This document shows positions 11,360 through 30,178 of a stretch of DNA of 64,000 bases, piece after piece (the stretch's first letter is position 1; each line of letters starts with the position of its first letter). The notes under the pieces were generated by a model. It did no database searches. It was given only the letters and a program-made list of their open reading frames with translations, and was not told where the DNA came from. Location: positions 34,630 to 98,629 of the forward strand of contig JADJYZ010000037.1 of the NCBI GenBank assembly GCA_016719515.1. The letters are read 5' to 3'. Source of the stretch: Deltaproteobacteria bacterium. GTDB taxonomy: Bacteria; Myxococcota_A; UBA796; CAJQPC01. Position numbers and translations under genes: made by a program.

Positions 11360-12769
11360 GGCTGCCCAGGCCCACCCACAGGTAGCCCAGGCCAAACAGC
11401 GCCAACAGCGGCGCCGAGCCCCAGGCCCCGGCGAACATGCAGGCGACGGCGCCGAGGAGCTGCCCCAGGCCGAGGGTGATCTCAACGATGGCGCCGCCGT
11501 CGCCGCCCAAGGCGTATCGACCGCGCCGCCGGACTCGCCCCGTTTGGGGGTGCGCACAAAGGCCCCGACCTCGCCAAAGAGCGCCTCAAACACCGCCCGG
11601 CTCTGGTTCACGGCCATGCCCGCGCCCAAGGCCATCGCCCACGGCACCCGGCCCAGACGCCGCGCCCAGTCGTTGTGGGTTGCCCCGGCGCTCACCCCGT
11701 AGAACACGCTCAGGGACGTCATCGCCACGGTGAAGAACACGGCGTGGAGCGGCTCCACCAGGGGGTGCCCCACCCGCTGAATCGCCGCGAGGGGCGTGAT
11801 CACCGAGAGCAGCAGCACCAGGGGATACGCGAGGTTCGCGCAGAGGTGCGCCGTGGCCTCAAGCTTCACCGGCCAAGGGGCGGGCGAGCGCCACAGCCTC
11901 GGCAAGAGCTTCTTCGCGGTCTGAATCGAGCCCTTCGCCCAGCGGCGCTGCTGGCTCTTGAACGCCAAGATGTCGCCGGGAAGCTCAGCGGGCACGGCGA
12001 GATCCGGCAAGTACACAAACCGCCAGCCCACGAGCTGGGCGCGGTACGAGAGGTCGAGGTCTTCAGTGAGCGTGTCACCCTGCCAGCCGCCGGCGTCGTG
12101 AATCGCCTCCCGGCGCCACAGCCCCGCCGTGCCGTTGAAGTTGAACCAGCGCCCGGAGCGCGCTCGGGCGGCGTGCTCGATGACGAAGTGCCCGTCCAAC
12201 AACATCGCCTCCACCCGGGTGAGCCAAGACTCTCCTTCGTTGAGGTGGGTCCAGCGCGCCTGGACCATGCCGATCTCTGGGCCGAGGGCGGGCACAGCGC
12301 GGCGCAAAAAGTCGGCGGGAGGCACAAAGTCGGCGTCAAAGATGGCGATGATCGAGCCCTTCGCCCGGCTGAGCCCCCAAGCCAAGGCCCCGGCCTTAAA
12401 GCCCTGGCGGTCGGGCCTGCGCAGCACCGTGACGTCGAGGCCCTTCGCCCGGTGGCGCGCGGCGGCGGCTTCAGCGAGCGGGGTGGTGTCGTCGTCGCTG
12501 TCGTCGAGGATCTGCAGCTCCAGGCGATCCCGAGGCCAGTCCAGCGCCGCCGCGGCGTCGATGAGCCGGGTGATCACATACCGCTCGTTGTAGACCGGGA
12601 GCTGCACGGTGACGAGGGGCAACGCGCGCTCCTCCAGCGTCGTGAGGGTCGGCGCCTGCCGCCGGGTGCGCCAATACCGCGAGGTGAGCCACAGCCGATG
12701 CAGCCCGTAGAGCGAGAGCGTTGAGGCGAGCAGCGCGTGACCGCCCAGGAGCAAAAGTTCCGTCACCAC
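11301..12769 (-). CDS. processive family-2 glycosyltransferase (cellulose-synthase-like/CslA-type) with an apparent frameshift near 11505-11540
   Basis: PVYNER, ILDDSDD, FDADF (DxD), QQRRWAKGS (QxxRW), FVRTPK (FxVTxK-like). After this the main frame becomes R/W/P-rich junk, while the -1 frame (ORF 11301..11510) encodes the expected C-terminal TM helices. Confidence 0.7.
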
Positions 12770-13128
12770 GACCCCGTCACCACGACCGTCTCGGCGGCTC
12801 CTCCCGACCTCAAGCGCCAGGGTGAGCCGCGAGACGTTTTAGCCCCGCAGACGACCTCCGCGCAAGCCGCGCCCCGCTCGGGTATAGTGAGCTTGGCCTC
12901 TGCCCGGTTCGAGTACAGAGCGATCGTGGTTCCTCCACAAGTATGTCCCGGGACCCGCCCCTCTCCGTGGTGTGCACGCCTCCTCGTGAGGAAGCCTGAA
13001 GCGGGAATGCGGCTCCCCCCTCCTGAGTGGAGGAGGACCCCAACGCTCACACGGCCAGGGTGGAGGCCACTTTTTTGCGCGGACGCCGACACGGGAACCT
13101 CCCCGCCGCCGCCAGGGTCTCCTGCACC

Positions 13129-14210: not shown

Positions 14211-15326
14211 TCAGTCGGCGTTCTTGTAGAACGTCGGGATGTCGTAGTCGTCGTGCGCGATGTCGAAGCCGCTGGCCATCTCGCGGCCATGACCGCCGTG
14301 CATCCCGCGGCGACCGGCCACCTGAACGGCGACGCGGCGCTCGGCGGAGGGCACCACCTGCTGACGGGCCTCCTCGAAGCCCGTGGCGATGACGGTGACG
14401 CGGGCCTCGTCGCCCATGGTGTCGTCGATGACCCAACCCCAGATGAGGTTGACGTCCTCGTGGGCCTCTTCCTGAATCAGCGAGGAGGCCTCGTTGATCT
14501 CGTACATCGTGAGGTTCGAGTTGCCGGTGATGTTCATCAGGACGCTGGTGGCGCCGGAGATGGAGACATCGTCGAGCAGCGGCGAGGAGATCGCGCGCTG
14601 GGCGGCGTCCACCGTCTTGTGGTCACCCGTGGCCGTGCCGACGCCCATGAGCGCCACGCCCTTGTTGGCCATCGTCGTGCGCACGTCGGCGAAGTCGACG
14701 TTGACGATGCCCTCAAAGTTGATGAGGTCGGACACGCCCTTGATCGCCTGGAGCAGCACCTGGTCGGCGAGGTTGAACGCCTCCTTCATGGTGGTGCGGT
14801 CGCTGGCCATGGCGATGAGGCGCTGGTTGGGGATGGTGATGAGGGTGTCCACGACGCCCTTCAGCGCCTCGATGCCCTCTTCAGCCTGACGGCGGCGCTT
14901 CTTGCCCTCGAACCAGAACGGGCGGGTGACCACACCGACGGTGAGCGCGCCGTGCTCGCGGGCGAGCTGGGCCAGAACCGGCGCCGCGCCCGTGCCCGTG
15001 CCGCCGCCCATGCCGGCGGTCACGAAGACCATGTCCGCGCCGACGACGAGCTCCGCGAGGCGCTCCTTGTCCTCAAGGGCCGCCTCACGGCCGACCTCGG
15101 GGTTGGCGCCAGCGCCAAGGCCCTTGGTGAGCTGACCGCCGAGCTGAAACCGGCGGGGGGCCAGCGAGCGACGAAGATCCTGGGCGTCGGTGTTCACGGC
15201 GATGAACTCGACCCCGGTGAGACCACCCGCGATCATGGTGTTGACGGCGTTGTTGCCGCCGCCGCCAACGCCGATCACCTTGATCTTGGCGCCGACCAGT
15301 TCGTTCTCAATGATTTCGATGGGCAT
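14211..15326 (-). CDS. ftsZ: cell division GTPase FtsZ
   Basis: MPIEIIENE...[19 protein letters not shown], tubulin signature GGGTGTG; start reset to MPIEII, since upstream ORF-track residues are wrong-frame-like. Confidence 0.95.
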
Positions 15327-15489
15327 GGAGTTCTCCCGAGGTGCCCCTGCGCGTTGACGCGACAGGAGGACAGGCGAGGCTTGGAGGGATTGTCGTTCGC
15401 GGGGGACGAAGGAGACGAGGAGGAGTGCAGGAGGGGAGCAGCGAGGTGCTTGCAGAGGTCGTCGCGTCCGAGGATGAGCCGGGGATGGC

Positions 15490-16275
15490 TCAGGACGAGA
15501 GCGGGGTCGCCACAGCGAGGCCGTCGAGGTCGAGGTCGATGTGGTGAGGGACGGAGAGGTCAAGCCCGTTGCGAGCCATGACCCCGAGCCGCAGAAGCTG
15601 CTGCGCCGGGTCTCGGAAACCGAACCGGAGCAAGCCGCCGTTGCGGAGGAGGAGGGTGAAGCCTAAGGCCTCGTCAAAATGAAGCTCGGAGAGGTCGTCG
15701 GGCTGAATCACGCCGCTCTCCCCGACGAGGTCGAGGATGTGCAGCGCGTCGAGCACGATGCGCCGAGCCACCGGCCCATATTGTTCTACGAGGCGATCGT
15801 CCAGGCCCGTGAGCACCGGCCGATCGAGGCCGTCGCCGCGGGCCCGCAAGAACACCTCACCCGAGGGGTTCACGCGGTAAAGATGCCCGGCGTGGGAGAG
15901 CAGCAGCACGTCCTCGTGCTCCTGCACATGCACCCGAAGGCCGCCGGGGTACACCCGCTCGACCTCCACCTCGGCCACCCAGGGGTGACGCATCACCTGG
16001 CGGATGACGGTGTTGAGGTCGATGAGCAGGAGCGCGTCGCCCTCGTGAACATCGGCGAGGTGGCGCACGGCCACGACGCTGGCGTGGTGGTTGCCGACGA
16101 CCTCCACCGTCGCCACGCGGGCGAAGCGGTGGTAGTTGCAGACCCCATAAACGCCGAGGCCGCTCACCCCCGCCGTCACCACCGCCACGCCAAGGAGCCG
16201 CAGGACGCGGCCCACGATGGGGCGCTCCAGCAGGTCGGCGAGGCGGTCACGGAGGCGGGTCAGCATGGCTCTCAA
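15490..16275 (-). CDS. ftsQ: cell division protein FtsQ/DivIB (POTRA)
   Basis: Single TM helix followed by a POTRA domain and a beta-rich domain; position between ddl and ftsZ. Confidence 0.8.
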
Positions 16276-16435
16276 CAGGCAGGGGCAGCGGGGAGGGAAT
16301 CAGCGTTCGCGGTGCGGCGGCGGCTTCTGCGGGGACTGAGCTTCTTTTACCAGAGGCCGAGAAGTCTTGACAAGTAAATAGTTTGATTTTCCCTGCTCGG
16401 GGTCGTTTTTACCCCCAAACAAGGATCCTTGAGGC

Positions 16436-17389
16436 TCAAGCGCGCTCGTCTCGGCGCTCTAGGTGCAGGCGCGCGCCGAGGAGGATCGTCTCGACGAGCT
16501 CCTCAAAGGACATCCCCAGGGCCCCGGCCGCCATTGGGCTCAGGCTGGTCGCGGTCATGCCGGGGATGGTGTTGATCTCCAAGAAGTAGGGCTGGCCTGA
16601 GGCGTCGACGATGAAGTCGGCGCGGGCGACGCCGCCCAAGCCCAGGCGGGCGTAGGCCTCCTCCGCGGCGCGCTGGGCGCGCTCGGCCACGGCGGGGTCG
16701 ATGGGCGCGGGCACGATGTACTTCGTGAGGCCCTTGGTGTACTTCGCGGCGAAGTCGAAGAAGCCGGACTCGGGCACGATGGCGACCACAGGCAAGGCCC
16801 GGCCGTTGAGCACGGCCACGGTGATCTCCGCGCCGGAGACGAACTGCTCTAGGAGCACCTCCTCGCCGAGCTGGCCCAGGTCCAAGAGCGCCTTCTCAAG
16901 CTCGTGCTCCTCATGCACCATGACGATGCCCAAGGTAGAGCCGCCCTCGGGGAACTTGGCCACGACGGGCAAGGTGAGGTCCTCAGGGATGGCCTCACCC
17001 CGGCGCCAGACCGTGTCCGCGGGCATCACCACGCCCGAGCCCACCAGGGCACGTTTGGTGGCGATCTTGTCCATCGCCATCGCCGAGCCCCGCACGCCGG
17101 AGCCGGTGTAGGGGATACGCATAATCTCCAGGAGGCCCTGCACGCAGCCGTCCTCGCCGAACTGGCCATGCAGCGCGATCCAGGCCACCTGGGCGCCGAG
17201 CTCTCTGAGGCGCTCGGGCAGATCCGGGCCCACATCGACGGCGTGGGCGTCCCAGCCGCGGCTCTGCAGCGCGCCGAGCACGGCTTTGCCCGACTTTAAG
17301 GAGATCTCCCGCTCGCTGGACATGCCGCCCAGAAGCACCGCCACCCGCGCGTCGCGGGGAATCACCGTCTTTGTCGTGTCAGCCATCAC
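16436..17389 (-). CDS. ddl: D-alanine--D-alanine ligase
   Basis: VAVLLGGMSSEREISLKSG...; ATP-grasp motifs. Confidence 0.95.
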   Translation of the reverse strand: MMADTTKTVIPRDARVAVLLGGMSSEREISLKSGKAVLGALQSRGWDAHAVDVGPDLPERLRELGAQVAWIALHGQFGEDGCVQGLLEIMRIPYTGSGVRGSAMAMDKIATKRALVGSGVVMPADTVWRRGEAIPEDLTLPVVAKFPEGGSTLGIVMVHEEHELEKALLDLGQLGEEVLLEQFVSGAEITVAVLNGRALPVVAIVPESGFFDFAAKYTKGLTKYIVPAPIDPAVAERAQRAAEEAYARLGLGGVARADFIVDASGQPYFLEINTIPGMTATSLSPMAAGALGMSFEELVETILLGARLHLERRDERA

Positions 17390-18248
17390 TCCTCCGGCTA
17401 CGCCCTAAGGGCTTGAGCTCAGGGTTCAGGTCTACGCCGAGGTGGCTCTTGGCGCGGTCTTTGACCATTCCGATGAGCACCTTGAGGTCGTTCTCTTTGG
17501 CGCCGCCGAGGTTGATGAGGGTGTTTGGCTCATAGCCGCCGAGCCGCGCGCTGCGTAAGCGCACGCCGCGTAGGCCAAGCTCACTCATCATCTCCGCCGC
17601 GTTGTGGTTCTTTTTGGGGTCCAAAAACAGGCGCCCCGGCAGGCCCGGCCCACGTTTGGGGGCGCGACCGCCCTTGAGCGCCTGAGCGGGGTCAAGCTCA
17701 AGGCGGGCCCGCACGATGACGTGGTCGTCCTTGAGCTTGCCGGGCACCACCTCGGTGAGCCGACCGCCGCGCAGCACCCGCACACCCACCAAGGTCGGCG
17801 GCGGCTCGTCGCGGCGGAGCAGCTCGGCGATGGTGCCTGAGACGTGGTTGTAGAGCTCTAAGCCGATGAGGCCCTCACGCTTGGCGTAGCTGGCCAAGGC
17901 CGCCACGGGCGTCTGGGCGCCCACATCGAGGCGCAGGCCCTCGCGGGAGATGCCCTCTGCGCAGGCGCCGAGTCGCAGCCAGACGCCGTCCGCGCCGCCG
18001 TCGCCAACCCAGAGGTGCTGGCCGTCTACGGGCACCACACGCTCATTCGCCTCGCGGATGAGGCCCACCGCCTCCAGGAGCGCCTCCTCGGTCTCGACCA
18101 CCACCCACAACGCCGCCGGGCCGCCCACACGCCAGGTGCAGTGGCGGCTCATCGGCTCGTCCTCACGCACCATCAGCCCCGGCACGCTGCGCAGGCGCTC
18201 GGCGAGGGCGGCCGTGGGCAGGGCCGATGGAGGCGCGGACTCGCTCAA
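17379..18248 (-). CDS. murB: UDP-N-acetylenolpyruvoylglucosamine reductase MurB (short type)
   Basis: CTWRVGGPA N-terminal motif; C-terminal LFLDPKKNHNAAEMMSELGLRG...TLINLGGAKENDLKVLIGMV matches the MurB C-domain. Confidence 0.75.
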   Translation of the reverse strand: MSESAPPSALPTAALAERLRSVPGLMVREDEPMSRHCTWRVGGPAALWVVVETEEALLEAVGLIREANERVVPVDGQHLWVGDGGADGVWLRLGACAEGISREGLRLDVGAQTPVAALASYAKREGLIGLELYNHVSGTIAELLRRDEPPPTLVGVRVLRGGRLTEVVPGKLKDDHVIVRARLELDPAQALKGGRAPKRGPGLPGRLFLDPKKNHNAAEMMSELGLRGVRLRSARLGGYEPNTLINLGGAKENDLKVLIGMVKDRAKSHLGVDLNPELKPLGRSRRSDG

Positions 18249-19633
18249 CGAGGCTCCCCGCCGAGGCGCTGCACCAAGGGCGCGCAGATCGAGTTCACGT
18301 TGCCCGCGCCCAAGGTGATCACCAGGTCGTTGGGCTGGGCCATGTCTGCGAGCCGGGTGAGGGCCTCGTCCAGATCGTCCACCCGATCGACGCCGCGGTG
18401 GCCGTAGCGGCGTAGGCCTTCAGCGAGGCTCTGGTGGTCGATCCCGTCGATGGGCGCCTCGCCCGCCGCGGCGATGGGGCAGACGAGCACCCGATCGGCG
18501 CGGTTAAAGGCCCGGCAGAAGTCGGCGTGAAGGTCGCGAACCCGGGTGTAGCGGTGCGGCTGAAAGACCGCGATGATCCGACGCTTCTCGAAGCCCGCGC
18601 GGGCGGCGGCGAGGGTGGCGCGGATCTCCTCGGGGTGATGGCCATAGTCATCCACGACCATGACGCCGCCGGCCTCCCCCACGACAGTGAACCGGCGCTG
18701 CACCCCGGTGAAGCCGTCTAAGCCCGCGGCGACCTGCTCAAAGGGGATGTCGAGGCCCAAGGCCGTGGCCGCCGCCGCCAAGGCGTTCTGCACGTTGTGC
18801 TGGCCGGGCATCATCAGGCGCAGGCGACCCAGGCTCTCGGGGCCCCGATGTACGGCGAAGCTCGTCTCTAAGCCATTGCAGCGGATGTCGTCCCCGCGCA
18901 GGTCGGCCTGCCGGGTGAGGCCGTAGGTGACCACGCGGCGGCGCAGCTCGGGCAGGCTCTCTTGCACGATGGGGTGGTCCAGGCAGGCCACGGTGAAGCC
19001 GAAGAAGGGCACCTTGTTGGCGAAGTCTACAAACGCCCGGCGTAAGGTGGCGAAGTCGCCGTAGTGGTCGAGGTGCTCGGGGTCGATGTTGGTGATGACG
19101 GCCACGGTGGGCGCCAACAACAAGAAGCTGCCGTCGGACTCATCGGCTTCAGCGACGAGCAGCTCCCCCTGGCCGAGCTTGGCGTTTGAGCCCAAGGCGT
19201 CGAGCTTTCCGCCGATCACCACCGTGGGGTCGAGGCCCGCGGCGCCGAGGATCTGGGCGATCATCGAGGTCGTCGTCGTCTTGCCGTGGGTGCCGGCGAC
19301 GGCGACGCCGTACTTCATGCGCATCAGCTCGGCGAGGAGCTCGGCCCGGGGGATGACGGGGATGGCCTGGGCGCGCCCGGCGGAGAGCTCCGGGTTGTGG
19401 TCGGGCACCGCCGTAGAGCGCACGATGACGTCGGCGCCGACGATGTTCTCCGCGCGATGGCCGATGAACACCTGGGCGCCCAAGCTCCGCAGCCGGGCCA
19501 CGGTGCCGCTCTCTTTCATGTCCGAGCCGGACACCACAAAGCCCAAGGTGAGCAGCACTTCAGCGAGCCCGTTCATGCCGGATCCGCCGATGCCCACAAA
19601 ATGAACCTGACGCACCTTTCCGCGGAACATCAT
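18245..19633 (-). CDS. murC: UDP-N-acetylmuramate--L-alanine ligase
   Basis: VHFVGIGGSGMNGLAEVLLTLGF, GTHGKTTTTSM. Confidence 0.95.
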   Translation of the reverse strand: MMFRGKVRQVHFVGIGGSGMNGLAEVLLTLGFVVSGSDMKESGTVARLRSLGAQVFIGHRAENIVGADVIVRSTAVPDHNPELSAGRAQAIPVIPRAELLAELMRMKYGVAVAGTHGKTTTTSMIAQILGAAGLDPTVVIGGKLDALGSNAKLGQGELLVAEADESDGSFLLLAPTVAVITNIDPEHLDHYGDFATLRRAFVDFANKVPFFGFTVACLDHPIVQESLPELRRRVVTYGLTRQADLRGDDIRCNGLETSFAVHRGPESLGRLRLMMPGQHNVQNALAAAATALGLDIPFEQVAAGLDGFTGVQRRFTVVGEAGGVMVVDDYGHHPEEIRATLAAARAGFEKRRIIAVFQPHRYTRVRDLHADFCRAFNRADRVLVCPIAAAGEAPIDGIDHQSLAEGLRRYGHRGVDRVDDLDEALTRLADMAQPNDLVITLGAGNVNSICAPLVQRLGGEPR

Positions 19634-20784
19634 CGGGCCAGAACCCCCTCCGCCGTGGCGCTCGGGCGGTAGATGGTGGGCGCCCGGGCTCCGGCGGCGC
19701 TGTTCGCCGAGACGTTGAGCAAGAGCCCCACGGCGAAGAGCTGGGCGACGATGGCGGAGGCGCCATAGGACATAAACGGCAGCACGAGGCCCTTGGGCGG
19801 CACGATGCCCATGACGACGCCGAGGTTGAAGAAGGCCTGCAGGCCGATGGCCGCGGTCAATGACGTCGCGAGCAGGGCCCCGAAGAGGTCTTCAGCCTGC
19901 CGGGCGACGTGCATGCCGCGCCAGATGAGCAGGCCGTAGAGCGTCAACAGCGCGAGCACGCCGATGAGGCCCAGCTCTTCACCCAACACCGAGCCGATGA
20001 AGTCGGTCCAGGGCTCGGGCAAGAACAGGTGTTTGGCTTGGCTCTCGCCGAGGCCACGCCCGGTGAGCCCGCCGGAGTGAAACGCGATCATCGACTGGAT
20101 GACCTGGTAGCCCGAGCCCGCCGCGTCCGCCCAAGGGTCCATGAACGAGCGCAGGCGCTTGAGCCGATAGGGCTCGGCCACGGCCACCAAGGCGCCGACG
20201 GTGACCCCGAGGCCAAAGAGCGCGTAGATAAACCGTGTGCGCAGCCCAGCGACGACCAGGGTGAGGAAGGCCATGCCGCCGATGATCACCGTGGTGCCGA
20301 AGTCGGGCTCCATGACGATGAGCAGCATCAAGGGCACGGGGATGGCCAAGGCCGGCAAGAGCACGTTCTTCACGTCGTCCAGGCGGCCGCCCTTCTCGTC
20401 GATGAAGTGCGCCATACACAAGACGCAGACCAGCTTCGCCAGCTCTGACGGCTGCAGGTTCACGCTGCCCATGCCGATCCAGCGCGACGCGCCGTTGACC
20501 CGGTGGCTGAGCCCCGGCACAAACACCAAGATGAGCCCGATGATGACCGCCGCGTAGGCCGCCCAGGCGTAGCGCCGCAGCCACTCATACGGCGTGAACG
20601 CGATGCCGACGCCGCCGATGATGCCGACGATGATCGCCGCGAGCTGGCGTTTGACGTAGTACCAGGGGTCGTCCAGGCGGTCGGCGGCCACGGGCCCCGA
20701 GGCCGACTGCACCATCACCAGCCCCAGAATGAGCAGCACGACGACGAGGCCCATGAGGGGCAGATCAAAACGGCGGGCCTTCAT
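19630..20784 (-). CDS. ftsW: lipid II flippase/peptidoglycan polymerase FtsW (SEDS family)
   Basis: 10-TM SEDS protein; in the canonical dcw position, overlapping the murC start. Confidence 0.9.
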   Translation of the reverse strand: MKARRFDLPLMGLVVVLLILGLVMVQSASGPVAADRLDDPWYYVKRQLAAIIVGIIGGVGIAFTPYEWLRRYAWAAYAAVIIGLILVFVPGLSHRVNGASRWIGMGSVNLQPSELAKLVCVLCMAHFIDEKGGRLDDVKNVLLPALAIPVPLMLLIVMEPDFGTTVIIGGMAFLTLVVAGLRTRFIYALFGLGVTVGALVAVAEPYRLKRLRSFMDPWADAAGSGYQVIQSMIAFHSGGLTGRGLGESQAKHLFLPEPWTDFIGSVLGEELGLIGVLALLTLYGLLIWRGMHVARQAEDLFGALLATSLTAAIGLQAFFNLGVVMGIVPPKGLVLPFMSYGASAIVAQLFAVGLLLNVSANSAAGARAPTIYRPSATAEGVLAR

Positions 20785-22104
20785 GTCGTGGCCTCCTGGG
20801 CGAGCCGCGCGAAGACGGCCCCACGGTGCTCGAAGTTGTTGAACTCATCAAACGAGGCGCAGGCCGGGGTGAGCAGCACCGCCTGGCCGGGCCGCGCGAG
20901 GCGACGGGCCAAGGCCACGGCGTCGGCGAGGCCAGAGACGACGTGGTGGGGATGCGCCCCCAACCCTTGGGAGATCTCCTGGGCGCTGCCGCCGCAGACG
21001 ATGACCTCCACCGCCGCGCGTGAGAGCGCCGGGCGGAGCAGGCCGTAGTCGGCGCCCTCTTTGCCTTGGCCGCCGAGGATCACCACCGCCGGGCGATCGA
21101 CGCTCTCTAAGCCCACCAAGGCGGCGTCGACGTTCGTGGCTTTGGAGTCGTTGATCCACAACACCCCGGCCTGCTCGGCCACGGGCTGCATGCGGTGGGG
21201 CAAGGCCGTGAGCGCCGAGAGGTCCAGCGCCGCCAAGGATGCGCCCAAGGCCCGGGCCAAAGCGGCGGCCACGGCGGCGTTCCAGCGGTTGATCCGGCCC
21301 ATGACCTTGAGGCCCGAGAGGTCTAGGCGCTCCCCTTCGATGAGGGCGTAGGAGCCATCGTCGCCGAGCAGCACGCCGGGCTCAGCATCCAGCCAGCGCC
21401 GCTGCCCCGGTTTGCCCTCACAGGCGGCCTTCAGGAGAATGTCTCCATTGGGGACATAGGCCAGAGCCGCTGGGCGTCATGTGGTCAAAGAGCTTGGCTT
21501 TGGCCGCGGCGTAGCCCTCCATCGTGCCGTGCCGGGCGAGGTGGTCGGGGGTGAGGTTGAGGATCACCCCGGCGTCGGGCGCGAAGTCTCCGGCGAGCTC
21601 AAGCTGGTACGAGGAGACCTCGACGACGAGGCTGTCAAAGTCCCCGCCCACGGCCTCACACAAGGGCGTGCCCAGGTTTCCGCCGACGAAGGGCCGCCGC
21701 CCGACCCCACGCAGGAGCTGCCCGGTGAAGTGGGTGACCGTGGATTTGCCGTTGGTGCCGGTGATCGCCGCCGTGGGCAGGCGCGGCAGGTGGCGCCAGG
21801 CGAAGCCCAGCTCACCGAGCACCTCCACCCCAGCGGCCAACGCCCGGCGCACCGGCGGCGCCGCGGCGGGCACCCCCGGGGAGACGACGACGAGGTCCAC
21901 GTCGGTGAGATCGGCGTCCTCATGGCGGCCAAAGACGTTGTGCGCGCCCTCGACGCCCTCGGAGTCCGCCTTGAGATCCGTGAGCGTCACCCGCTCTGCG
22001 CCCAAGCGCAACGCCAGACGCGCGGCGGCCCGGCCCGAGAGCCCAGCCCCGAGCACGGTGACCCGACGTGGCATGACGTGGGTTGTGGCGCCGCCCATGC
22101 TCAC
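20781..22104 (-). CDS. murD: UDP-N-acetylmuramoylalanine--D-glutamate ligase MurD, split by a +1 frame disruption near 21474-21483
   Basis: N-terminal half (ORF 21418..22104: VTVLGAGLSGRAAA...ITGTNGKST...AAKAKLFDHM) and C-terminal half (upstream extension of ORF 20781..21374: AYVPNGDILL...WINDSKATNV...) align contiguously to MurD. Confidence 0.85.
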
Positions 22105-23210
22105 CTCAGCTTCAAGGTGGTGAGGGCCACCAGCGCGAGCAGGATCGAGATGATCCAGAACCGCACGATGATCTTCGGCTCCGACCAGCCACGCTTCTCG
22201 TAGTGGTGGTGAATCGGCGCCATGGCGAACACGCGCTTGCCCGTGGTCTTGAAGCTCACGACCTGCACGATCACCGAGACCGTCTCCAAGACGAAGATCC
22301 CGCCGACCAGGGCCAGGAGCACCTCATGTTTGGTGACCACGGCCAAGGCCGCGAGCAGCCCGCCCAAGGCCAAGGAGCCCACGTCGCCCATAAAGATCTG
22401 CGCGGGGTAGGCGTTGTACCAGAGGAAGCCCAGGCCCGCGCCGACCACGGCCATACACAGCACCGTGAGCTCTGAGGCCCCGGCGACGTACTCCACGGCG
22501 AGGTAGGTCGAGAAGTTCGTGTTCCCGGCGACATACGCCAAGATGCCGTAGGTGCCCGCCGAGGTCATCACCGGGCCGATGGCCAGGCCGTCGAGGCCAT
22601 CGGTGAGGTTCACGGCGTTGGACGCGCCGACGAGGATGAACAGCACCAAGGCGAGGTAGAGCCAGCCCAGGCTGGGCGGGGCGCCCTCCCAGAGGTTCCC
22701 GAAGTCCACGCCCGCCTTAAAGAACGGGAGCTGAAACACGGCGTTCATGCGCCCGGTCTGGTAGGCCCAGGCGAAGGGCAGCACGCCGAAGACGAGCTGC
22801 CCGACGATCTTCCAGCGCCCGGCGAGGCCATCGGCGGACTTCTCCATCACCTTCTTCCAGTCGTCTACGAAGCCGATGAGCCCATAGCCGAGGAGCACGA
22901 TGAGGCAGACCCAGACCGACCACTGATCGAGGCGACACCACAGAAGCGCCGAGAGCGTGATGCCCGCGAGCATCGGCACCCCGCCCATGGTCGGCGTGCC
23001 CAGCTTGTTCTCGATGTGCTCCTGCGGCCCGTCGGTGCGGATGATCTGCTCCATCTTCCGGGTGTTCATCCAGTTGATGAAGCTCGGGAAGACCAAGTAG
23101 CAGAACCCGAGCGCGGTCATGAGCGCCCAGGCCGTCCGGAACGTGGTGTACCGGAAGACGTTGAAGAAGATGTGGTCGTCCGCCAAGGGGACGAAGAGGT
23201 GGTAGAACAT
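22101..23210 (-). CDS. mraY: phospho-N-acetylmuramoyl-pentapeptide transferase
   Basis: MFYHLFVPLADDHIFFNVFRYTTFR..., polytopic; start reset to MFYHLF. Confidence 0.95.
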   Translation of the reverse strand: MFYHLFVPLADDHIFFNVFRYTTFRTAWALMTALGFCYLVFPSFINWMNTRKMEQIIRTDGPQEHIENKLGTPTMGGVPMLAGITLSALLWCRLDQWSVWVCLIVLLGYGLIGFVDDWKKVMEKSADGLAGRWKIVGQLVFGVLPFAWAYQTGRMNAVFQLPFFKAGVDFGNLWEGAPPSLGWLYLALVLFILVGASNAVNLTDGLDGLAIGPVMTSAGTYGILAYVAGNTNFSTYLAVEYVAGASELTVLCMAVVGAGLGFLWYNAYPAQIFMGDVGSLALGGLLAALAVVTKHEVLLALVGGIFVLETVSVIVQVVSFKTTGKRVFAMAPIHHHYEKRGWSEPKIIVRFWIISILLALVALTTLKLR

Positions 23211-24586
23211 CAGCCCTCCGGCTCCGGCGGAGCCTCCAGGGGGAGCCAAACGAGAGAACGCTCCATCTTGGAGCCGCGTGAGCCCTTGATGAGCACCACG
23301 TCATCGGGGCGCAGCACCCCTTGGACACGCTCGGCGAGGGCGTCGGCGTCGGGGGCGACGAGCAGGGACTTGGCCCCTTTGGCAGTTTCTGCCACCGCCG
23401 AGAAGCGGGCTCCGGCGAGGCCGAGCACCTCGATCCCCAGCGACGCCGCGTAGGCCGCCAGCTCGCGGTGAGCGCCGTCCTCGACCTCACCCAGCTCCAG
23501 CATGTCGCCCAACAAGGCCACCCGGCGGCGCCCCCGCACGGCGGCGAGGCTGTCCAGCGAGGCCCGCATCGAGAGCGGGTTCGCGTTGTAAGCGTCGTTG
23601 AGCACGGTGATCCCACCTTGGCGGCGCTCCACGCGCATCCGCATGCCCACGGGGGCGTAGCGGGCGATGCTCTCGGCGTATGACCGGCTGGGCACACCCA
23701 AAGCCCAGGCCACGGCGACGGCCCCGGCGGCGTTCCGCGCGAGGTGAACGCCCGGCGCGGGCAGAGTCGCCGTGAGCAGCTCACCGTCGGGCAGGCGCAA
23801 GACCAGCTCCGTCGTGAGGTGCTCCGGGTCGAGCTCAGCGCGCAGAAGCCGCACGTCCGCCCGCTCCCCCATGCCAAACCGCAGGATCCCGGCGCCTTTT
23901 GGCAGAGGCATCTGGCGAATGTGCTCGTCGTCTACGTTGACGATCACCCAGTCCCCTGCCCTCGCGCCGTCAAAGATCTCTTGTTTGCAGCGGGCGACGC
24001 CCTGAACGGAGCCGATGGTCTCGGTGTGCGCCGCGCCGACGCTGGTGATGAGCCGAACGTTGGGCTGGCCGATGTCGCGCAAGAGGCGAATCTCGCCGTA
24101 GTCGCTCATGCCCATCTCTAAGACGACGGCGTCGGGCTCATCGGGGCAAGCGAGCAGCGTGAGCGGCACGCCGATGTGGTTGTTGAGGTTGCCCTCGTTC
24201 TGGTGAACCCGGCCCAGGGGCGCGAGCAGCTCCGCGATGAGCGCCCGGGTCGTCGTCTTGCCCGCGCTGCCGGTGACGCCGACCACCGGGCAGTCGAGCT
24301 TCCACCGGGCCCAGCGCGCGCAGTTCTGCAGGGCCTCTAAGGTGCGTGGCGTCTTCACGAAGCCCCGATCCCAGCCCTCAGGCACCTGCTCGGCGATCAC
24401 CCCAGCGCAGCCAAGCTCCCGGGCCTTGGGCAAAAACTCGTGGCCGTCGAAGCGGTCGCCGCGCAGGGCCAGAAACCAGTCGCCCGGCGTGAGCGCGCGG
24501 CTGTCGGTGCGGATCGGCCCGGCGGGGCCGTCGTGAATCAAGAGCCCACCCGTGGCCCGGGCGATCTCGGCTGGCGTGAGGATCAT
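23210..24586 (-). CDS. murF: UDP-N-acetylmuramoyl-tripeptide--D-alanyl-D-alanine ligase
   Basis: Mur-ligase domains, VVGVTGSAGKTTT. Confidence 0.9.
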   Translation of the reverse strand: MILTPAEIARATGGLLIHDGPAGPIRTDSRALTPGDWFLALRGDRFDGHEFLPKARELGCAGVIAEQVPEGWDRGFVKTPRTLEALQNCARWARWKLDCPVVGVTGSAGKTTTRALIAELLAPLGRVHQNEGNLNNHIGVPLTLLACPDEPDAVVLEMGMSDYGEIRLLRDIGQPNVRLITSVGAAHTETIGSVQGVARCKQEIFDGARAGDWVIVNVDDEHIRQMPLPKGAGILRFGMGERADVRLLRAELDPEHLTTELVLRLPDGELLTATLPAPGVHLARNAAGAVAVAWALGVPSRSYAESIARYAPVGMRMRVERRQGGITVLNDAYNANPLSMRASLDSLAAVRGRRRVALLGDMLELGEVEDGAHRELAAYAASLGIEVLGLAGARFSAVAETAKGAKSLLVAPDADALAERVQGVLRPDDVVLIKGSRGSKMERSLVWLPLEAPPEPEG

Positions 24587-26031
24587 GCGCCCTCCTCTAA
24601 AAACGCCGCGCGCAGGGCACGGCGATCGTCAAAGGGGTGCTTGACCCCGGCGATCTCTTGGGTGGTCTCGTGGCCTTTGCCCGCGATCAGCACCACGTCC
24701 CCAGGCCTTGAGAGCGCGACGGCGCGGCGGATGGCCTCAGCGCGGTCGGGCACGATCAGGGCGTCGGGGCCGAGCCCGGGGGCCATGTCGTTCAGGATGG
24801 CCAGCGGATCTTCACCGCGGGGGTTGTCGCTCGTGGCGATGACCACGTCGGCGCCTTCGCTCGCCGCCCGGGCCATGAGCGGCCGCTTCTGGGGGTCGCG
24901 GTCGCCGCCGCAGCCGAAGACGAGCACGATGCGCTGGGCGCCGAGCTCTCGGAGCGCGCTGAGCACCGTGCGTAGGCCATCTTCAGTGTGGGCGTAGTCC
25001 ACGAGCGCCGTGACGCCGCGGTTGTTGGCCACAGGCTCCAGCCGACCGGGCACCGGCGGCGCCTTCGAGAGCCCTTCGGCGACCTGCTCCGGGCTCAAGC
25101 CCAAGCTCAAGGCCGCGCCCGCCGCGCCCAAGGCGTTGGCGACGTTGTGCCGACCGAGCAGGGGCAGCCGCAGCGCAAAGTCGCCCCAAGGCGTCACCAC
25201 CGTCGCCTCGCTCCCAGAGACGGTGAGGCGTAGGCCCTCGGCGTGAACGTCGCCGTGATCTACGCCGAAGGTCACCCGGCGCACGCCCTCAGGCAGCGTC
25301 GGCAAGGCCATCACCGCCGGGTCTTCAGCGTTGAGCAGGGCCGTGGCCCCGCTGGGCAAAAGCTCCAAGAACAGCCGCGCCTTGGCCTGGGCATACGCCG
25401 CCATGTCGCCGTGGTAGTCGAGGTGGTCTTGGGTGAGGTTCGTGTAGACCCCCACCGCAAAGCGCGTGGAGTCCACCCGGCGGGCGTCTAGGCCGATGGA
25501 GCTGACCTCGGCGGCCGCCCACTCACAGCGAGCGTCCACGGCCCGGCGCAGGAGGCCCTGCCACTCCGTGGGCTCGGGCGTGGTGTGGGTCGCGGGCAGG
25601 TTCTCCCCGGCCACACGGTTGCCCACGGTGCCGATGACCGCGGCGCGCACGCCGTTCGCCGCGGCGATGGCCTCGATGAGCTGCGTCGTCGTCGTCTTGC
25701 CGTTGGTGCCGGTCACCCCGACGACCTTCAGATCATTGGACGGATGACCAAAAAACGCCGCGGCCAGCTCGGCCAAGGCCTTGCGGCTGTCGTTGACCCG
25801 CACGACGGTGACCCCGGCGGGGGCCTCTACGTCCCGCTCAACGACGACCGCCGCGGCTTGGCTGAGCCCAGCGACGTGATCGTGGCCATCCCCACGCCGC
25901 CCGACCAGGGCGACAAACACCGCCCCGGGGCCCGCGCGGCGCGAGTCCTGGGTGATGGCGACGATGGGAAGATCAACGCGGCCATGAACATGAGCCACGT
26001 CGACCCCGCGCAGCAGCTCGGAGAGCATCAT
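24583..26031 (-). CDS. murE: UDP-N-acetylmuramoyl-L-alanyl-D-glutamate--2,6-diaminopimelate ligase
   Basis: VVGVTGTNGKTTTTQLIEAI, DNPR motif. Confidence 0.9.
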   Translation of the reverse strand: MMLSELLRGVDVAHVHGRVDLPIVAITQDSRRAGPGAVFVALVGRRGDGHDHVAGLSQAAAVVVERDVEAPAGVTVVRVNDSRKALAELAAAFFGHPSNDLKVVGVTGTNGKTTTTQLIEAIAAANGVRAAVIGTVGNRVAGENLPATHTTPEPTEWQGLLRRAVDARCEWAAAEVSSIGLDARRVDSTRFAVGVYTNLTQDHLDYHGDMAAYAQAKARLFLELLPSGATALLNAEDPAVMALPTLPEGVRRVTFGVDHGDVHAEGLRLTVSGSEATVVTPWGDFALRLPLLGRHNVANALGAAGAALSLGLSPEQVAEGLSKAPPVPGRLEPVANNRGVTALVDYAHTEDGLRTVLSALRELGAQRIVLVFGCGGDRDPQKRPLMARAASEGADVVIATSDNPRGEDPLAILNDMAPGLGPDALIVPDRAEAIRRAVALSRPGDVVLIAGKGHETTQEIAGVKHPFDDRRALRAAFLEEGA

Positions 26032-26766
26032 CAGCGTTCAGCGGGGAGGAGGGGGGTCGCGACGGGGAGGGGAGAATCAGGAGAAGTTCAGGATGAAGCG
26101 GCGGAGATGTCGGGCGGCGGTGAGTGGCGCCCCTCTGCGTACTGCCAGGGAGTCACGCGGATTGGAGATACGGCTCAGCGTGCAGAGAGGCGCCACCAAC
26201 ACCTGCCCAATGGAGGTCCGATCGTGTCTTGCCTCCTTCAGACGCTCCCACCCCGCGAGGCCCCAGCGCGAAGAGGCCGGGGTTCCAAACCAGCAGCAGC
26301 AGTTGTCTCAGCGAGGAGCGACAGGGCGGGGCGACGGACCAGCACAACTCACGGCGGAAGGAGGCGCGCCAGAACAGCGCGCTTGACCTCCGAGGCGAGC
26401 GCCAGCGATGACTGGCGAGCCGGACCCGCACCCCCGGCCTGCGACGCGCGGAGCCTGTCTGCGGGGCGGGAGCGTGAAGGATGGCCGGGCCGACGTGGCC
26501 GCGCGCACGAGGACTTCCTCGTACAGCGTCAGCGACAGCATCAGCAGGTTTCAGCAGGGTTTCGGCGGGCAGCGAGAGCATCGACAGCGTCTCTGATGGG
26601 CCAGAAGCGGGGCTGGCGTCACCAGGGCACACCCTTCGCGCGGGGATTGCGCTCGGGGCTCTGTCAAGCATACGCGGCAGCGCAGACCCGACCATCGGCA
26701 GATCATCCGCAAAGCGCAAGAGCACGCCTTCGGACCTCTGAGAGCTTGTTTGGCGGAGGTTGGCCG

Positions 26767-28860
26767 TCATTGCAGCACGACCTCCAGCCGGTCCCCCGCC
26801 GCCAAAGCATAGCCCGGCGCGGGGTTTTGAGAGACGACGCGGCCTGAGCCGACGAGGCTGACCTCAACCCCGGCGCCATCGACGGCGACGAGCACGTCAC
26901 GCATCGAGCGGCCGGTGAGGTCGGGGACGGACATGCGCCCATCGGCCAGCCAGGTGAGCTGGGCGGGGCCTGGGGCCACCTTCACCGGGGCGGGCATCGC
27001 CATGGGCGGCGGCACCACGGGCAGGGGCAGGCCATCGGGGCCGAGCGCCGGAGGCGGCGGGGCGAGCTTGGGCTTGGGCTCAATCGGCACATCTTCGGGC
27101 ACGCCCAGGTAACGAAGCGCCCGGGTGGCGATGAGCGAGAAGCCGGGGCCAGCGACGATGCCGCCGTACTTGCTGCCGATGGTGGGCGTGTCGCCGATGA
27201 CCACGATGGCGAGGCGAGGATCGTTCGCCGGGGTGAGCCCGATGAACGACGACACCCGCGCCGTGGCCGAGTAGTGGCCGTCCACGACCTTCTGCGCCGT
27301 GCCGGTCTTGCCCGCGGCGGAGAAGCCCTCGGGCCGGGCCTTGGTGCCCGTGCCGCCGGTCTCCAACACGGTGATCATCATCTTCACGAGGCTGTCCGCG
27401 GCCTCTTCAGAGATGACCCGCTCCACCCGCACCGGGCGGTTGCGCAGCCGGACATAGCCCAGGCGATCCCGCACTTCAGAGACCAGGTACGGCTTCATGC
27501 GCACGCCGTCGTTGCCCACCGCGGCCAAGGCCGCCGCGAGCTGCACCGCGGTGGCGGTCATGCCCTGACCAAAGGCCGTCGTCGCCACCTCAATGGGCCG
27601 AATGCCTTTGGGGTTCCGCAAGAAGCCGTAGACCTCGCTGGGCAGGTTCAGGCCCGAGGGCTGGGTGAACCCAAACCGCTTGAGGCCCGCCATCATCTCT
27701 TCAGCGCCCATGGCGAACGCCAGCTTGGCCGTGCCGATGTTGGAGCTGTACTTCACCACCTCAGAGAGGGTCACGACACCGTGGGGGTGGTCGTCGTTGA
27801 TGATGCTGTTGCCGACGCGCCAGCTCCCGCCCTCGCAGTCGATGAGGTCTTCAGCCTTGTTGATGCCTTTGTCTACGGCGAGGCCGACCACAAAGGGCTT
27901 GAGCACCGAGCCCGGCTCGTGGGCGTCCGCGACGGCGCGGTTACGCATCGCCGAGACGTCGATGGTGGAGACGTCGTTGGGGTTCGCGTTGGGCCGGTTG
28001 GCGATGGCGAGGATCTCGCCGGTCTTCACGTCCATCACCACCGCGATGGCCGCGGCCGGGGCGGAGGTGATCATCATCTGGTCCAGCGCGTCTTCAGCGG
28101 CGCGCTGAATGAAGGGCTCGATGGTGAGGGTGACCGAGTCTCCGGCGTGGGCCCGGGCCCGGGCGTCCCCCGCCGTAGAGATGTTGCGCCCGCGGCGGTC
28201 ACGCTGCTGCACGAAGCGGTAGGTGCTGCCCCGAAGCTGCTTGTCCAGGGAGCGCTCGATGCCCTCAAGGCCCTGGTTGTTCTGCCCGACCATGCCCAAC
28301 AGCGAGGCCGCCAGGGCGCGCCCGGGGTAAAACCGAGTGGACTGGTAGTCTACCCACAAGGCGCCGGGGACGAGCTTCTCGACGGCGTCGACGGCGTCGG
28401 GGGAGATCTGGCTGGCGAGCAGGATGTCGCGGCGCTCGCTCTTGCTCAGCTTCTCGGTGAGGTCCGCGGCGTCGAGGCCGAGCATGCCCGCCAGCTCACG
28501 CGCCAGAGGCCCGACCTGCTCGGCGGTGAGCTTGGACGGATCGGCGCGCAGCGCGGGCATCTCAACAGAGGTGGCCAGCACCGTGCCGTCGCGGCCGAGG
28601 ATGTCGCCGCGCGGGGCCTCCACCTCTACCGCCGTCTGAAACTGCGTCGCGGCCTTGGCTTGAAGGCGATCGTCGGGCATCAACATCAGGGGCACGGCGC
28701 GCAGGGCCAACACGACGTAGCCAAGAATGACGCCGACCATGATCAATGACGCGCGGAAACGGGCCCGGGCCATGAGCGTCGCCCGATCCACGGTGCCAGG
28801 ATCTGGCGCGAGCATCGCGCTGAGCCAGGCGGAGAGATCGTTGGCGACGGGCTTGTTCAC
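26767..28860 (-). CDS. ftsI: penicillin-binding protein 3 (FtsI) transpeptidase with a C-terminal PASTA domain
   Basis: TM anchor, dimerisation and transpeptidase domains (SVLKPF, SSN, KTGTA); C-terminal about 65 aa, VPDLTGRSMRDVLVAVDGAGVEVSLVGSGRVVSQNPAPG, is a PASTA fold. Confidence 0.9.
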   Translation of the reverse strand: MNKPVANDLSAWLSAMLAPDPGTVDRATLMARARFRASLIMVGVILGYVVLALRAVPLMLMPDDRLQAKAATQFQTAVEVEAPRGDILGRDGTVLATSVEMPALRADPSKLTAEQVGPLARELAGMLGLDAADLTEKLSKSERRDILLASQISPDAVDAVEKLVPGALWVDYQSTRFYPGRALAASLLGMVGQNNQGLEGIERSLDKQLRGSTYRFVQQRDRRGRNISTAGDARARAHAGDSVTLTIEPFIQRAAEDALDQMMITSAPAAAIAVVMDVKTGEILAIANRPNANPNDVSTIDVSAMRNRAVADAHEPGSVLKPFVVGLAVDKGINKAEDLIDCEGGSWRVGNSIINDDHPHGVVTLSEVVKYSSNIGTAKLAFAMGAEEMMAGLKRFGFTQPSGLNLPSEVYGFLRNPKGIRPIEVATTAFGQGMTATAVQLAAALAAVGNDGVRMKPYLVSEVRDRLGYVRLRNRPVRVERVISEEAADSLVKMMITVLETGGTGTKARPEGFSAAGKTGTAQKVVDGHYSATARVSSFIGLTPANDPRLAIVVIGDTPTIGSKYGGIVAGPGFSLIATRALRYLGVPEDVPIEPKPKLAPPPPALGPDGLPLPVVPPPMAMPAPVKVAPGPAQLTWLADGRMSVPDLTGRSMRDVLVAVDGAGVEVSLVGSGRVVSQNPAPGYALAAGDRLEVVLQ

Positions 28861-29213
28861 TGGGCCACCCCGATCGTCACGGTGCGGACCTGAACGTCAG
28901 AGACGAGGCCCATGGCCGCGCCGACCTGGCCCAAGCGGGCGAGGTCTTGGCGGGTGGCCAGCTCAAGGCGCAGGCGCTCTTGTTCGGCCTGACGGGTGGC
29001 GAGCTGGGTGTTCACGCGGTCGAGCTCGGCGGCGCTGGCGCGCACGTCCACCCGAGACCAGACGTAAAACATCAACGAGGCGACGAGCAGCATCGCGAAG
29101 GTGAAGTACCGCAGCACCACACCGACCCGCACACCTGCCCGCGACGCGCCCGCGAGGAGCCCCGCCGCAGAGCGACCGACCCAAGCGCCTCCTAGCTCGC
29201 GACCCCATTCCAT
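28857..29213 (-). CDS. ftsL: cell division protein FtsL (FtsB/DivIC-like)
   Basis: 118 aa, single TM helix (YFTFAMLLVASLMFYVW) followed by a coiled coil; between rsmH and ftsI. Confidence 0.7.
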   Translation of the reverse strand: MEWGRELGGAWVGRSAAGLLAGASRAGVRVGVVLRYFTFAMLLVASLMFYVWSRVDVRASAAELDRVNTQLATRQAEQERLRLELATRQDLARLGQVGAAMGLVSDVQVRTVTIGVAQ

Positions 29214-29265
29214 GACCGACCTCCTACGCCACCTCAGCCACCGCCGACGTACTGCACCGCTGCCG

Positions 29266-30171
29266 CTACACCCGCTCGATCACCCGGAGCTTCGCCGAGC
29301 GCGCCCGGGGGTTCCCCGAGCCCGCGTCCTCGACGGCCTTCTTCGTGATGAGCCTCGCCGTCGGAACACCGAGGGACCGCCCGTAGGCGTCCTTCTCGGC
29401 GTCCAGCCCCGCGAGCGCCCGAAAACGCTGCTTGACCCGACGATCTTCTAAAGAATGAAACGAGATCACCGCCGCCCGACCGCCCACGGTGAGGCAGCCA
29501 GGCAAGGCCGCCAAGAGCCGGTCCAGCTCACCCAGCTCGTCATTGACGGCGAGGCGAAGGGCCTGGAAAGAGCGTGTGGCGGGGTGAATGCGATCCCGAG
29601 GGCCGCCCATCGCCCCGGCGATGACCTGGGCGAGCTGCGCTGTGCCGGTGATCGGCCGCGCGGCGACGATGGCCCGGGCCAAACGACGCGACTGGCGCTC
29701 CTCACCGAGGCCATAGAGCAGATCCGCCAGCTCCGCCTCGGGGAGGCCGTTGACCAGCTCCGCCGCCGTGGTGGGGGCGTCTGGGTCCATACGCATGTCC
29801 AGCGGGCCGTCTCGCATAAACGAGAAGCCCCGGGCGGCCTGATCGAGCTGGGGGCTCGACACGCCGAGATCGGCGACGAGGCCGTCTACGGCGCTCACAC
29901 CGGCCTCGGCCAAGGCGGCTTGCAGCGCGCCGAAGGTCGAGCGCACGGCGACGAAGCGCTCACCAAACCCGGCGAGGCGGGCTGAAGCGGCGGCGAGGGC
30001 GTTTGGGTCGCGGTCGAGGCCGATCACCCGGCCCGTGGGCCCCGAGGCCTCCAAGAGCCGCTCGGCGTGGCCGCCGCCGCCCAAGGTGCAGTCGAGGTAC
30101 AGGCCGCCGTCGCGCGGGGCGAGCAGCGCGCAGACCTCGGACCCCATCACCGTCTCGTGCTGGAACACCGT
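29266..30171 (-). CDS. rsmH: 16S rRNA (cytosine1402-N4)-methyltransferase RsmH/MraW
   Basis: HETVMGSEV...YLDCTLGGGGHAE, SAM motifs; start reset to about the GTG at 30171 next to the mraZ stop. Confidence 0.9.
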   Translation of the reverse strand, partial: TVFQHETVMGSEVCALLAPRDGGLYLDCTLGGGGHAERLLEASGPTGRVIGLDRDPNALAAASARLAGFGERFVAVRSTFGALQAALAEAGVSAVDGLVADLGVSSPQLDQAARGFSFMRDGPLDMRMDPDAPTTAAELVNGLPEAELADLLYGLGEERQSRRLARAIVAARPITGTAQLAQVIAGAMGGPRDRIHPATRSFQALRLAVNDELGELDRLLAALPGCLTVGGRAAVISFHSLEDRRVKQRFRALAGLDAEKDAYGRSLGVPTARLITKKAVEDAGSGNPRARSAKLRVIERV

Positions 30172-30178
30172 CACTGGC

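What the first reader, a model, noticed from the sequence alone, without database searches (positions are those of the whole stretch)
21470..21490. Essential murD split by a +1 frame disruption inside the dcw cluster
MurD reads ...AAKAKLFDHM in one frame (ORF 21418..22104) and continues RPAALAYVPNGDILLKAACEGKP...VLLGDDGSY... in another (upstream extension of ORF 20781..21374). A single extra nucleotide at CATGACGC explains this. murD is essential for peptidoglycan synthesis and the flanking genes overlap it with translational coupling. A genuine inactivating mutation is therefore implausible and an assembly indel is the likely cause.
Basis: partly seen in the sequence, partly recalled or inferred. 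Interest (0 to 1): 0.5.

Follow-up and report, generated by a model that had tools for sequence, protein, structure and literature searches.

The report
Assembly indel splitting the murD gene
The cell-wall gene murD really is broken by one extra base in this sequence, but the record is an error-prone nanopore metagenome assembly with several other broken genes, so the break is almost certainly a sequencing or consensus error, not biology.

Summary
On the minus strand, murD (between mraY and ftsW) reads in one frame to ...AKAKLFDHMTPS(G) and continues in the next frame as (A)LAYVPNGD... Deleting one base at 21466-21468 restores a 438-aa ORF the same length as its closest intact orthologue (97% identical).

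The interpretation (assembly indel) is strongly supported.
- The N-terminal fragment is identical to NCBI MBK9368498.1, from a "Deltaproteobacteria bacterium" MAG.
- Its 99%-identical sibling MAG (JADKFE01, CANU "tig" contig) carries the naming of a nanopore activated-sludge MAG set.
- All 12 other members of the 90% cluster that cover the junction, from JGI, Logan, ENA and NCBI assemblies, read through it in frame.
- The window has at least five more frame breaks: a GT2 gene, a Cys/Met PLP enzyme, and three in a PKS.
- The sibling MAG has murD broken at the same spot by a different indel (net -1). It also has murC and ftsZ broken where the window is intact.
- dN/dS is equally low in both halves of murD.
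- There is no slippery site, no stimulatory structure and no conservation, so recoding is not supported.

This is an ordinary artefact of low interest. It matters only for annotation quality.

The parts
21469..22098 (-). murD N-terminal part in frame A: MurD-like N domain, P-loop GTNGKS, and the central domain up to ...AAKAKLFDHMTPS. An alternative GTG start at 22104 overlaps the mraY stop.
   Evidence: Identical to NCBI MBK9368498.1 (P0122), which starts at ATG 22098.
21465..21468 (-). Site of the single extra base, minus strand G-G-C-T. C21466 is extra if the true codon is GGT, as in the relatives L001 and L009. One G of 21468-21467 is extra if the true sequence is AGC GCT CTG.
   Evidence: DNA alignments. 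Viterbi frame switch at 21464/21465. Deleting 21466 restores a 438-aa ORF.
21418..21465 (-). Out-of-frame tail of frame A (SGLCPQWRHSPEGRL*), ending at TGA 21420-21418. It has no homology to MurD.
20781..21464 (-). murD C-terminal part in frame B: LAYVPNGD... to ...ARLAQEATT*, covering the rest of the central domain and Mur_ligase_C. Its stop overlaps the ftsW ATG as ATGA.
22101..23249 (-). mraY, the upstream neighbour. Its stop at 22103-22101 abuts or overlaps the murD start.
   Evidence: Pfam PF00953 on the orthologous genes in L001 and L004.
19630..20784 (-). ftsW, the downstream neighbour. Its ATG at 20784-20782 overlaps the murD stop.

Best explanation
The split is a single-base insertion error in the consensus of a nanopore-assembled (CANU) metagenome-assembled genome that Illumina polishing did not fix. 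The organism is an activated-sludge Myxococcota/'Deltaproteobacteria' bacterium. It most likely carries an ordinary intact 438-aa murD, translationally coupled to mraY and ftsW. What is shown: the extra base, its position, the intact state of the gene in the other assemblies of relatives examined, and the high density of other frame breaks in this contig and in its sibling MAG. What is inferred: that the window's own record came from the same long-read pipeline as the sibling, and that the error recurs at this spot because it is hard to call. The tetrapeptide here varies between strains (TPSG, TPAG, GPAG, APDG), so mixed-strain pile-ups or local sequence context may derail the consensus.
For: (a) Deleting one base restores a 438-aa ORF, the same length as P0001 and 97% identical to it. 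(b) Seven orthologous loci from JGI, Logan and ENA assemblies (L001-L007) and three NCBI MAG loci (L008-L010) are intact across the junction. All 12 other cluster members that cover the junction are in frame there. The only truncated ones are P0122, which equals the window, and P0123, which equals sibling MAG L011. (c) The window has other frame breaks. A GT2 glycosyltransferase breaks at about 11523; one L009/L010 protein matches in frames -1 and -3. A Cys_Met_Meta_PP enzyme has profile positions 1-283 in frame +0 and 278-380 in frame +2, at about 57738-57756. A PKS has its DH and ER domains split over three frames at about 60880, 61100-61270 and 62830-62850. That is at least 6 breaks in 64 kb. 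(d) Sibling MAG L011 is 99.05% identical over 21.3 kb. It has murD broken at the same place by a different change, ACGCCC-GC-GCTCTGG, net -1. It also has murC and ftsZ broken where the window is intact. No frame-breaking indel is shared between the two assemblies. (e) L011's isolate and contig names match the MAG set of PMC8012365, built with CANU v1.8 on nanopore reads, Racon, two rounds of medaka 0.6.5, and one Illumina Racon round. (f) dN/dS against five relatives is 0.11-0.23 for the N part and 0.14-0.23 for the C part.
Against: No reads are available, so the extra base cannot be shown directly to be absent from the DNA. On the L001-type reconstruction the insertion is not in a homopolymer (GG[C]TC), which is less typical of nanopore errors. 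On the alternative reconstruction it is a G to GG length error. Two MAGs erring within the same 4-6 nt is unlikely for random errors, roughly 1e-3 at the observed density. It needs a context-specific cause that I could not demonstrate: the 9-mer GGTCTGGCC occurs twice elsewhere in the window. That the window's own record is nanopore-derived is inferred from the sibling and from the adjacent NCBI accession and locus-tag series, not read from its record.
Confidence: 0.93

Rival explanations
1. This is a genuine, very recent +1 frameshift mutation (a murD pseudogene allele) present in the sampled population. It would be tolerated because intact alleles co-exist in other cells, or because a second murD lies elsewhere in the genome.
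For: The extra base is in the deposited sequence. A sibling population also shows a broken murD at this spot. A very recent lesion would leave no dN/dS signal, so cannot exclude it.
Against: murD is essential for peptidoglycan synthesis (established knowledge). The rest of the dcw cluster is intact and coupled. The break falls in the middle of the central domain, so neither fragment could act alone. The two MAGs carry different indels that cannot be derived from each other by one step and restore nothing. The same contigs show breaks in murC, ftsZ, a PLP enzyme and a PKS, which is what error-prone consensus gives. There is no second murD in the window, and only one murD locus was found in the sibling genome by the peptide-pattern scan.
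Confidence: 0.04
2. This is programmed recoding: a +1 ribosomal frameshift or transcriptional slippage that produces full-length MurD from the split gene.
For: A rare CUA codon follows two codons after the shift site in frame A (sequence). The overlap between the two frames is short.
Against: The arrangement is not conserved. All close relatives have a plain in-frame gene, and the sibling MAG is shifted in the opposite sense. There is no slippery or homopolymeric run and no in-frame stop at the shift site. The downstream 93 nt fold no better than shuffles, z = 0.18. There is no Rfam match in 20700-22300.
Confidence: 0.01
3. This is a naturally split murD encoding two polypeptides that assemble into an active ligase.
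For: A GTG at 21374 could start a 197-aa C-terminal ORF.
Against: The split lies inside the central ATP-binding domain, at about E. coli residue 205, and not at a domain boundary. About 30 conserved residues (LAYVPNGD...EPGV) would be lost between the frame-A stop and GTG 21374. No relative is split.
Confidence: 0.005

Closest known systems
Residual indel errors and truncated genes in nanopore R9-era MAGs (CANU/Racon/medaka, with or without short-read polishing)
   Same: There is a single-base indel inside a conserved gene. Several such breaks occur per contig: at least 6 in 64 kb here, and 3 in 21 kb of the sibling MAG. The breaks are not shared between sibling assemblies. Assemblies of relatives from other sources are intact. 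[quoted passage not shown]
   Different: On one reconstruction the inserted base is not in a homopolymer. Both sibling MAGs err at the same 4-6 nt, which points to a local, systematic cause rather than random error.
Canonical MurD (UDP-N-acetylmuramoyl-L-alanine:D-glutamate ligase), e.g. E. coli MurD, PDB 1UAG/5A5F
   Same: After removing one base, the protein aligns end to end (residues 11-435 against 6-435, E = 2e-58), including the P-loop GTNGKS and the AAK...(L/I)(F/Y) lysine segment. It sits in the usual mraY-murD-ftsW position.
   Different: As deposited, the ORF is interrupted at a point equivalent to about E. coli residue 205.
Programmed +1 frameshifting (prfB type)
   Same: Only the formal requirement is shared: a +1 shift would be needed to join the two frames.
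   Different: There is no conserved shift site, no in-frame stop or hungry codon at the site, no stimulatory element, and no conservation in orthologues.

Membership tests
MurD (TIGR01087 equivalog) | Full-length match to the family HMM above the curated cut-off | tested here: met
   The merged protein scores 340.1 bits against a cut-off of 211.95, with residues 14-436 on profile positions 1-440 of 441.
MurD (TIGR01087 equivalog) | Mur-ligase P-loop (GxxGKT/S) and the conserved lysine of the central domain aligned with E. coli MurD | tested here: met
   GTNGKS and AAKAKLF align with E. coli GSNGKS and AAKLRIY, and these columns are invariant among 9 orthologues. That this lysine is the catalytic or carbamylated one rests on my own knowledge.
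MurD (TIGR01087 equivalog) | Encoded as one uninterrupted ORF | tested here: not met
   The deposited sequence has two frames. The feature is met once base 21466 is removed.
MurD (TIGR01087 equivalog) | dcw-cluster position between mraY and ftsW | tested here: met
Long-read consensus indel artefact | The record derives from an error-prone long-read assembly | tested here: inconclusive
   The window fragment equals MBK9368498.1 from a MAG. The sibling L011 has CANU 'tig' contigs and the naming used in PMC8012365. The window's own record title was not seen.
Long-read consensus indel artefact | Other conserved genes in the same contig also carry frame breaks | tested here: met
   GT2 at about 11523. 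Cys_Met_Meta_PP at about 57740. PKS DH and ER domains at about 60880, 61100-61270 and 62840.
Long-read consensus indel artefact | The break is absent from independent assemblies of close relatives and is not shared with a sibling assembly | tested here: met
Long-read consensus indel artefact | Reads contradict the consensus at the site | not testable with these tools
   No read data are accessible.
Programmed +1 ribosomal frameshift | The shift is conserved in orthologues | tested here: not met
   All relatives are in frame, and the sibling MAG is shifted by -1 instead.
Programmed +1 ribosomal frameshift | A slippery or hungry-codon shift site and a stimulatory element | tested here: not met
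   There is no such site in AGC GGC UCU GGC. The downstream fold has z = 0.18. There is no Rfam hit.
Genuine pseudogene | Relaxed selection or additional lesions downstream of the break | tested here: not met
   C-part dN/dS is 0.14-0.23 against 0.11-0.23 for the N part, and there is a single lesion only. A very recent lesion cannot be excluded this way.

The most novel reading that the evidence does not exclude
Two independent MAGs of one species have murD broken within the same 4-6 nt, by different indels. This might mark a real feature of the DNA rather than chance. It could be a genuinely hypervariable or indel-prone codon stretch with frameshifted alleles segregating in sludge populations. 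It could also be a site-specific DNA modification that systematically derails nanopore base-calling.
Probability: 0.05. Interest if true: 0.35.

Novelty: not a real feature. Interest (0 to 1): 0.05.

Why it matters
The biological importance is minimal: the organism almost certainly has a normal murD. The practical importance is modest. The deposited record annotates the N-fragment as a "hypothetical protein". The GTDB species representative (JADKFE01) has murD, murC and ftsZ all broken. Automated pathway calls for this lineage would therefore wrongly report gaps in peptidoglycan synthesis and cell division, and the PKS in the same contig would be mis-parsed by BGC tools. This is a case for re-polishing, not for follow-up biology.

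Tried and rejected
- Exact-sequence look-ups of the window's FtsW, the 228-aa GTG-start fragment and the 226-aa ATG-start fragment found no contig. The source was identified through the cluster listing instead.
- A gapped DNA pattern spanning the junction, scanned over JGI metagenome contigs, returned only the L001 contig already in hand. It gave no new population sample of the spacer length.
- I tested a motif-specific error at GGTCTGGCC. Both L001 and L009 have this 9-mer at the site and both nanopore-type MAGs read GCTCTGGCC. The window keeps GGTCTGGCC at 41315 and 53910, so the motif alone does not explain the error. A methylation cause remains untested.
- Programmed frameshifting was rejected: no conservation, no shift site, no structure (z = 0.18), no Rfam hit.
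- A split two-subunit MurD was rejected, because the break is inside the central domain and conserved residues would be lost.
- There is no second murD in the window. Only weak paralogue hits to murE and murF appear.
- The Viterbi scan also flagged 49685 (Ser/Thr kinase) and a +2/+1/+2 blip at 60346-60434 in the PKS AT domain. Pfam matched the AT domain in a single frame and there is no family model for the kinase tail, so I do not count either as a confirmed break.

Full report
**What is in the sequence**

The region is a minus-strand dcw cluster: murE 24583-26031, murF 23210-24586, mraY 22101-23249, murD, ftsW 19630-20784, murC 18245-19633, murB 17379-18248.

murD occupies two frames.
- Frame A starts at GTG 22104, or at ATG 22098 as used by NCBI and by orthologues. 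It reads to ...AAKAKLFDHMTPSGSGLCPQWRHSPEGRL and stops at TGA 21420-21418.
- Frame B is open from 21476, just after a TGA at 21479-21477. It reads RPAALAYVPNGDILLKAACEGKPGQRRWLDAEPGVLLGDDGSY... down to the stop at 20783-20781.

The joined protein matches TIGR01087 (murD) at 340 bits against a cut-off of 212, in one stretch over profile positions 1-440 of 441. It also aligns end to end with E. coli MurD structures.

The mraY stop overlaps or abuts the murD start, and the murD stop overlaps the ftsW ATG as ATGA.

**Where the extra base is**

The closest intact orthologues are P0001 (438 aa, 97% identical to the repaired protein) and P0002 (437 aa, 91%).

I aligned their DNA from seven loci in JGI, Logan and ENA assemblies. 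The window has exactly one surplus base, at minus-strand GCGG[C]TCTGG, position 21466.

Residues TPSG are therefore read in frame A, and LAYVPNGD in frame B. A codon-usage Viterbi path trained on the window's long ORFs switches frame at 21464/21465. Deleting 21466 gives a clean 438-aa ORF.

An equally simple reconstruction is ACG CCC AGC GCT CTG GCC (TPSA-LAYV). The window would then have a G to GG length error at 21468-21467, and the sibling MAG (below) a missing A. Each would be a single event. This is inference.

**Where the window comes from**

The 226-aa fragment from ATG 22098 is identical to NCBI MBK9368498.1, [quoted passage not shown], on a 98,629-nt contig.

The genome-collection scan found L011, which is JADKFE010000010.1, isolate Rand_18-Q3-R56-63_MAXAC.001, contig "tig00004464". 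It is 99.05% identical to the window over 21.3 kb.

That isolate and contig naming matches the activated-sludge MAG set of PMC8012365. That set was assembled with CANU v1.8 from nanopore reads, then polished with Racon, two rounds of medaka 0.6.5, and one Racon round with Illumina reads. That the window's own MAG came from the same pipeline is inferred from the sibling and from the neighbouring accession and locus-tag series.

**Tests of artefact versus biology**

1. *Relatives.* Every other member of the 90%-identity cluster that covers the junction (12 proteins from JGI, Logan, ENA and NCBI assemblies) reads xPxG-LAYVP in a single frame. The only truncated members are the two from these MAGs. 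The NCBI MAG loci L008-L010 are also intact.

2. *Error density in the window.*
   - One protein of L009/L010 matches the window in frames -1 and -3 with a junction at about 11523 (a GT2 glycosyltransferase).
   - A Cys/Met-metabolism PLP enzyme has Pfam profile positions 1-283 in frame +0 and 278-380 in frame +2, at about 57738-57756.
   - A type I PKS has its KS-AT, DH-N, DH-C/ER-N and ER-C/KR segments in frames +2, +1, +0 and +2, with breaks near 60880, 61100-61270 and 62830-62850.
   - With murD, that makes at least six frame breaks in 64 kb.

3. *The sibling assembly.* L011 has murD broken at the same spot, but as ACGCCC-GC-GCTCTGG. That is two bases fewer than the window, a net -1, giving ...HMTPALWPMSPMETFS*. 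It also has frame breaks in murC and ftsZ, where the window agrees with the other relatives. Conversely, L011 is in frame with L009 at the GT2 site, where the window is not. No frame-breaking indel is shared between two genomes that are 99% identical. That is the signature of independent consensus errors, not of inherited pseudogenes.

4. *Selection.* Nei-Gojobori dN/dS against five relatives is 0.11-0.23 for the N-terminal part and 0.14-0.23 for the C-terminal part. The C-terminal part shows no decay. A very recent real lesion would look the same, so this result is supportive only.

5. *Function.* The break corresponds to about residue 205 of E. coli MurD, inside the central ATP-binding domain and a few residues after the conserved AAK lysine segment (domain limits are from my own knowledge). 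Neither fragment would be a working unit. There is no second murD in the window.

**Alternatives**

- *Programmed +1 frameshifting.* This is contradicted by the lack of conservation, by the opposite-sense shift in the sibling, by the absence of a slippery, stop or hungry-codon site, by a downstream fold no better than shuffles (z = 0.18), and by no Rfam hit.
- *A natural two-piece MurD.* This is contradicted by the intradomain position and by the conserved residues that would be lost before the first possible restart at GTG 21374.
- *A genuine recent mutation in part of the population.* This cannot be formally excluded without reads. It would have to coexist with the clear evidence that both contigs are full of consensus indels.

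**The one oddity**

Both MAGs fail within the same 4-6 nt. At roughly one indel per 7-10 kb, a random coincidence has a probability of the order of 1e-3, so a local cause is likely.

The tetrapeptide encoded here is the most variable spot in an otherwise nearly invariant stretch: TPSG, TPAG, GPAG or APDG among close relatives. Mixed-strain pile-ups could therefore confuse consensus and polishing.

A context or modification effect is also possible. However, the 9-mer GGTCTGGCC occurs at two other places in the window. Neither explanation could be tested here.

**Verdict**

- It is not a real biological feature, and its interest is low.
- It is worth flagging only because the deposited annotation calls the fragment a hypothetical protein, and because the GTDB representative of the species has murD, murC and ftsZ all broken.

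Noticed in passing
window 11334-12787 (-), junction ~11523: A family-2 glycosyltransferase is frame-broken. One protein of relatives L009/L010 matches in frame -1 (12787-11525) and frame -3 (11522-11334). At GGCGGCG[.]CGGTCG the window has 1 nt fewer than L009, and the sibling MAG L011 has 3 fewer, which keeps it in frame.
   Followed up: partly
window 56923-58046 (+), junction ~57738-57756: A Cys/Met-metabolism PLP-dependent enzyme (PF01053) is split between two frames. Profile positions 1-283 are in frame +0 and 278-380 in frame +2. This is another probable consensus indel.
   Followed up: partly
window 58161-64000 (+): A type I polyketide synthase module (KS-AT-DH-ER-KR) runs off the window end. 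It is broken into four frames at about 60880, 61100-61270 and 62830-62850. There is also a possible compensated pair at 60346-60434 inside the AT domain, which Pfam does not support.
   Followed up: partly
window 48959-51953 (-), ~49685: The long C-terminal region of a Ser/Thr protein kinase changes coding frame (-2 to -1) with no stop or start nearby. This is a candidate further frameshift, supported only by the codon-usage path.
   Followed up: no
L011 13260-13276 and 16980-17005 (window equivalents ~18846 and ~15098): The GTDB species-representative MAG (JADKFE01) has murC and ftsZ frame-broken as well as murD. The window and the other relatives are intact at those two places.
   Followed up: yes
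window 14214-30499 (-); L001, L004: The dcw cluster of this clade reads mraZ-rsmH-ftsL-ftsI-murE-murF-mraY-murD-ftsW-murC-murB-ddl-ftsQ-ftsZ. ftsW overlaps murC directly, so there is no murG there, and ftsQ is followed by ftsZ with no ftsA. In the window the mraZ, rsmH, ftsL and ftsI assignments are inferred from position and gene size only. Whether murG and ftsA lie elsewhere in the genome was not checked.
   Followed up: no
window 24703-24710 (-), in murE: Relative to L011 and L009 there is a compensated pair of 1-nt indels 7 nt apart, which changes ALSKAGD to ALSRPGD. L001 shows no gap against the window here, so this is probably natural variation and not an error.
   Followed up: partly
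window 26070 and 30928: There are single-base length differences against L011, and at 26070 also against L001. Both lie in the non-coding stretches upstream of murE and of mraZ. They are likely further consensus indels of no coding consequence.
   Followed up: no
window 21418-22098 (-): NCBI's annotation of the source record calls the N-terminal MurD fragment a 'hypothetical protein' (MBK9368498.1) and does not flag a frameshifted pseudogene.
   Followed up: yes
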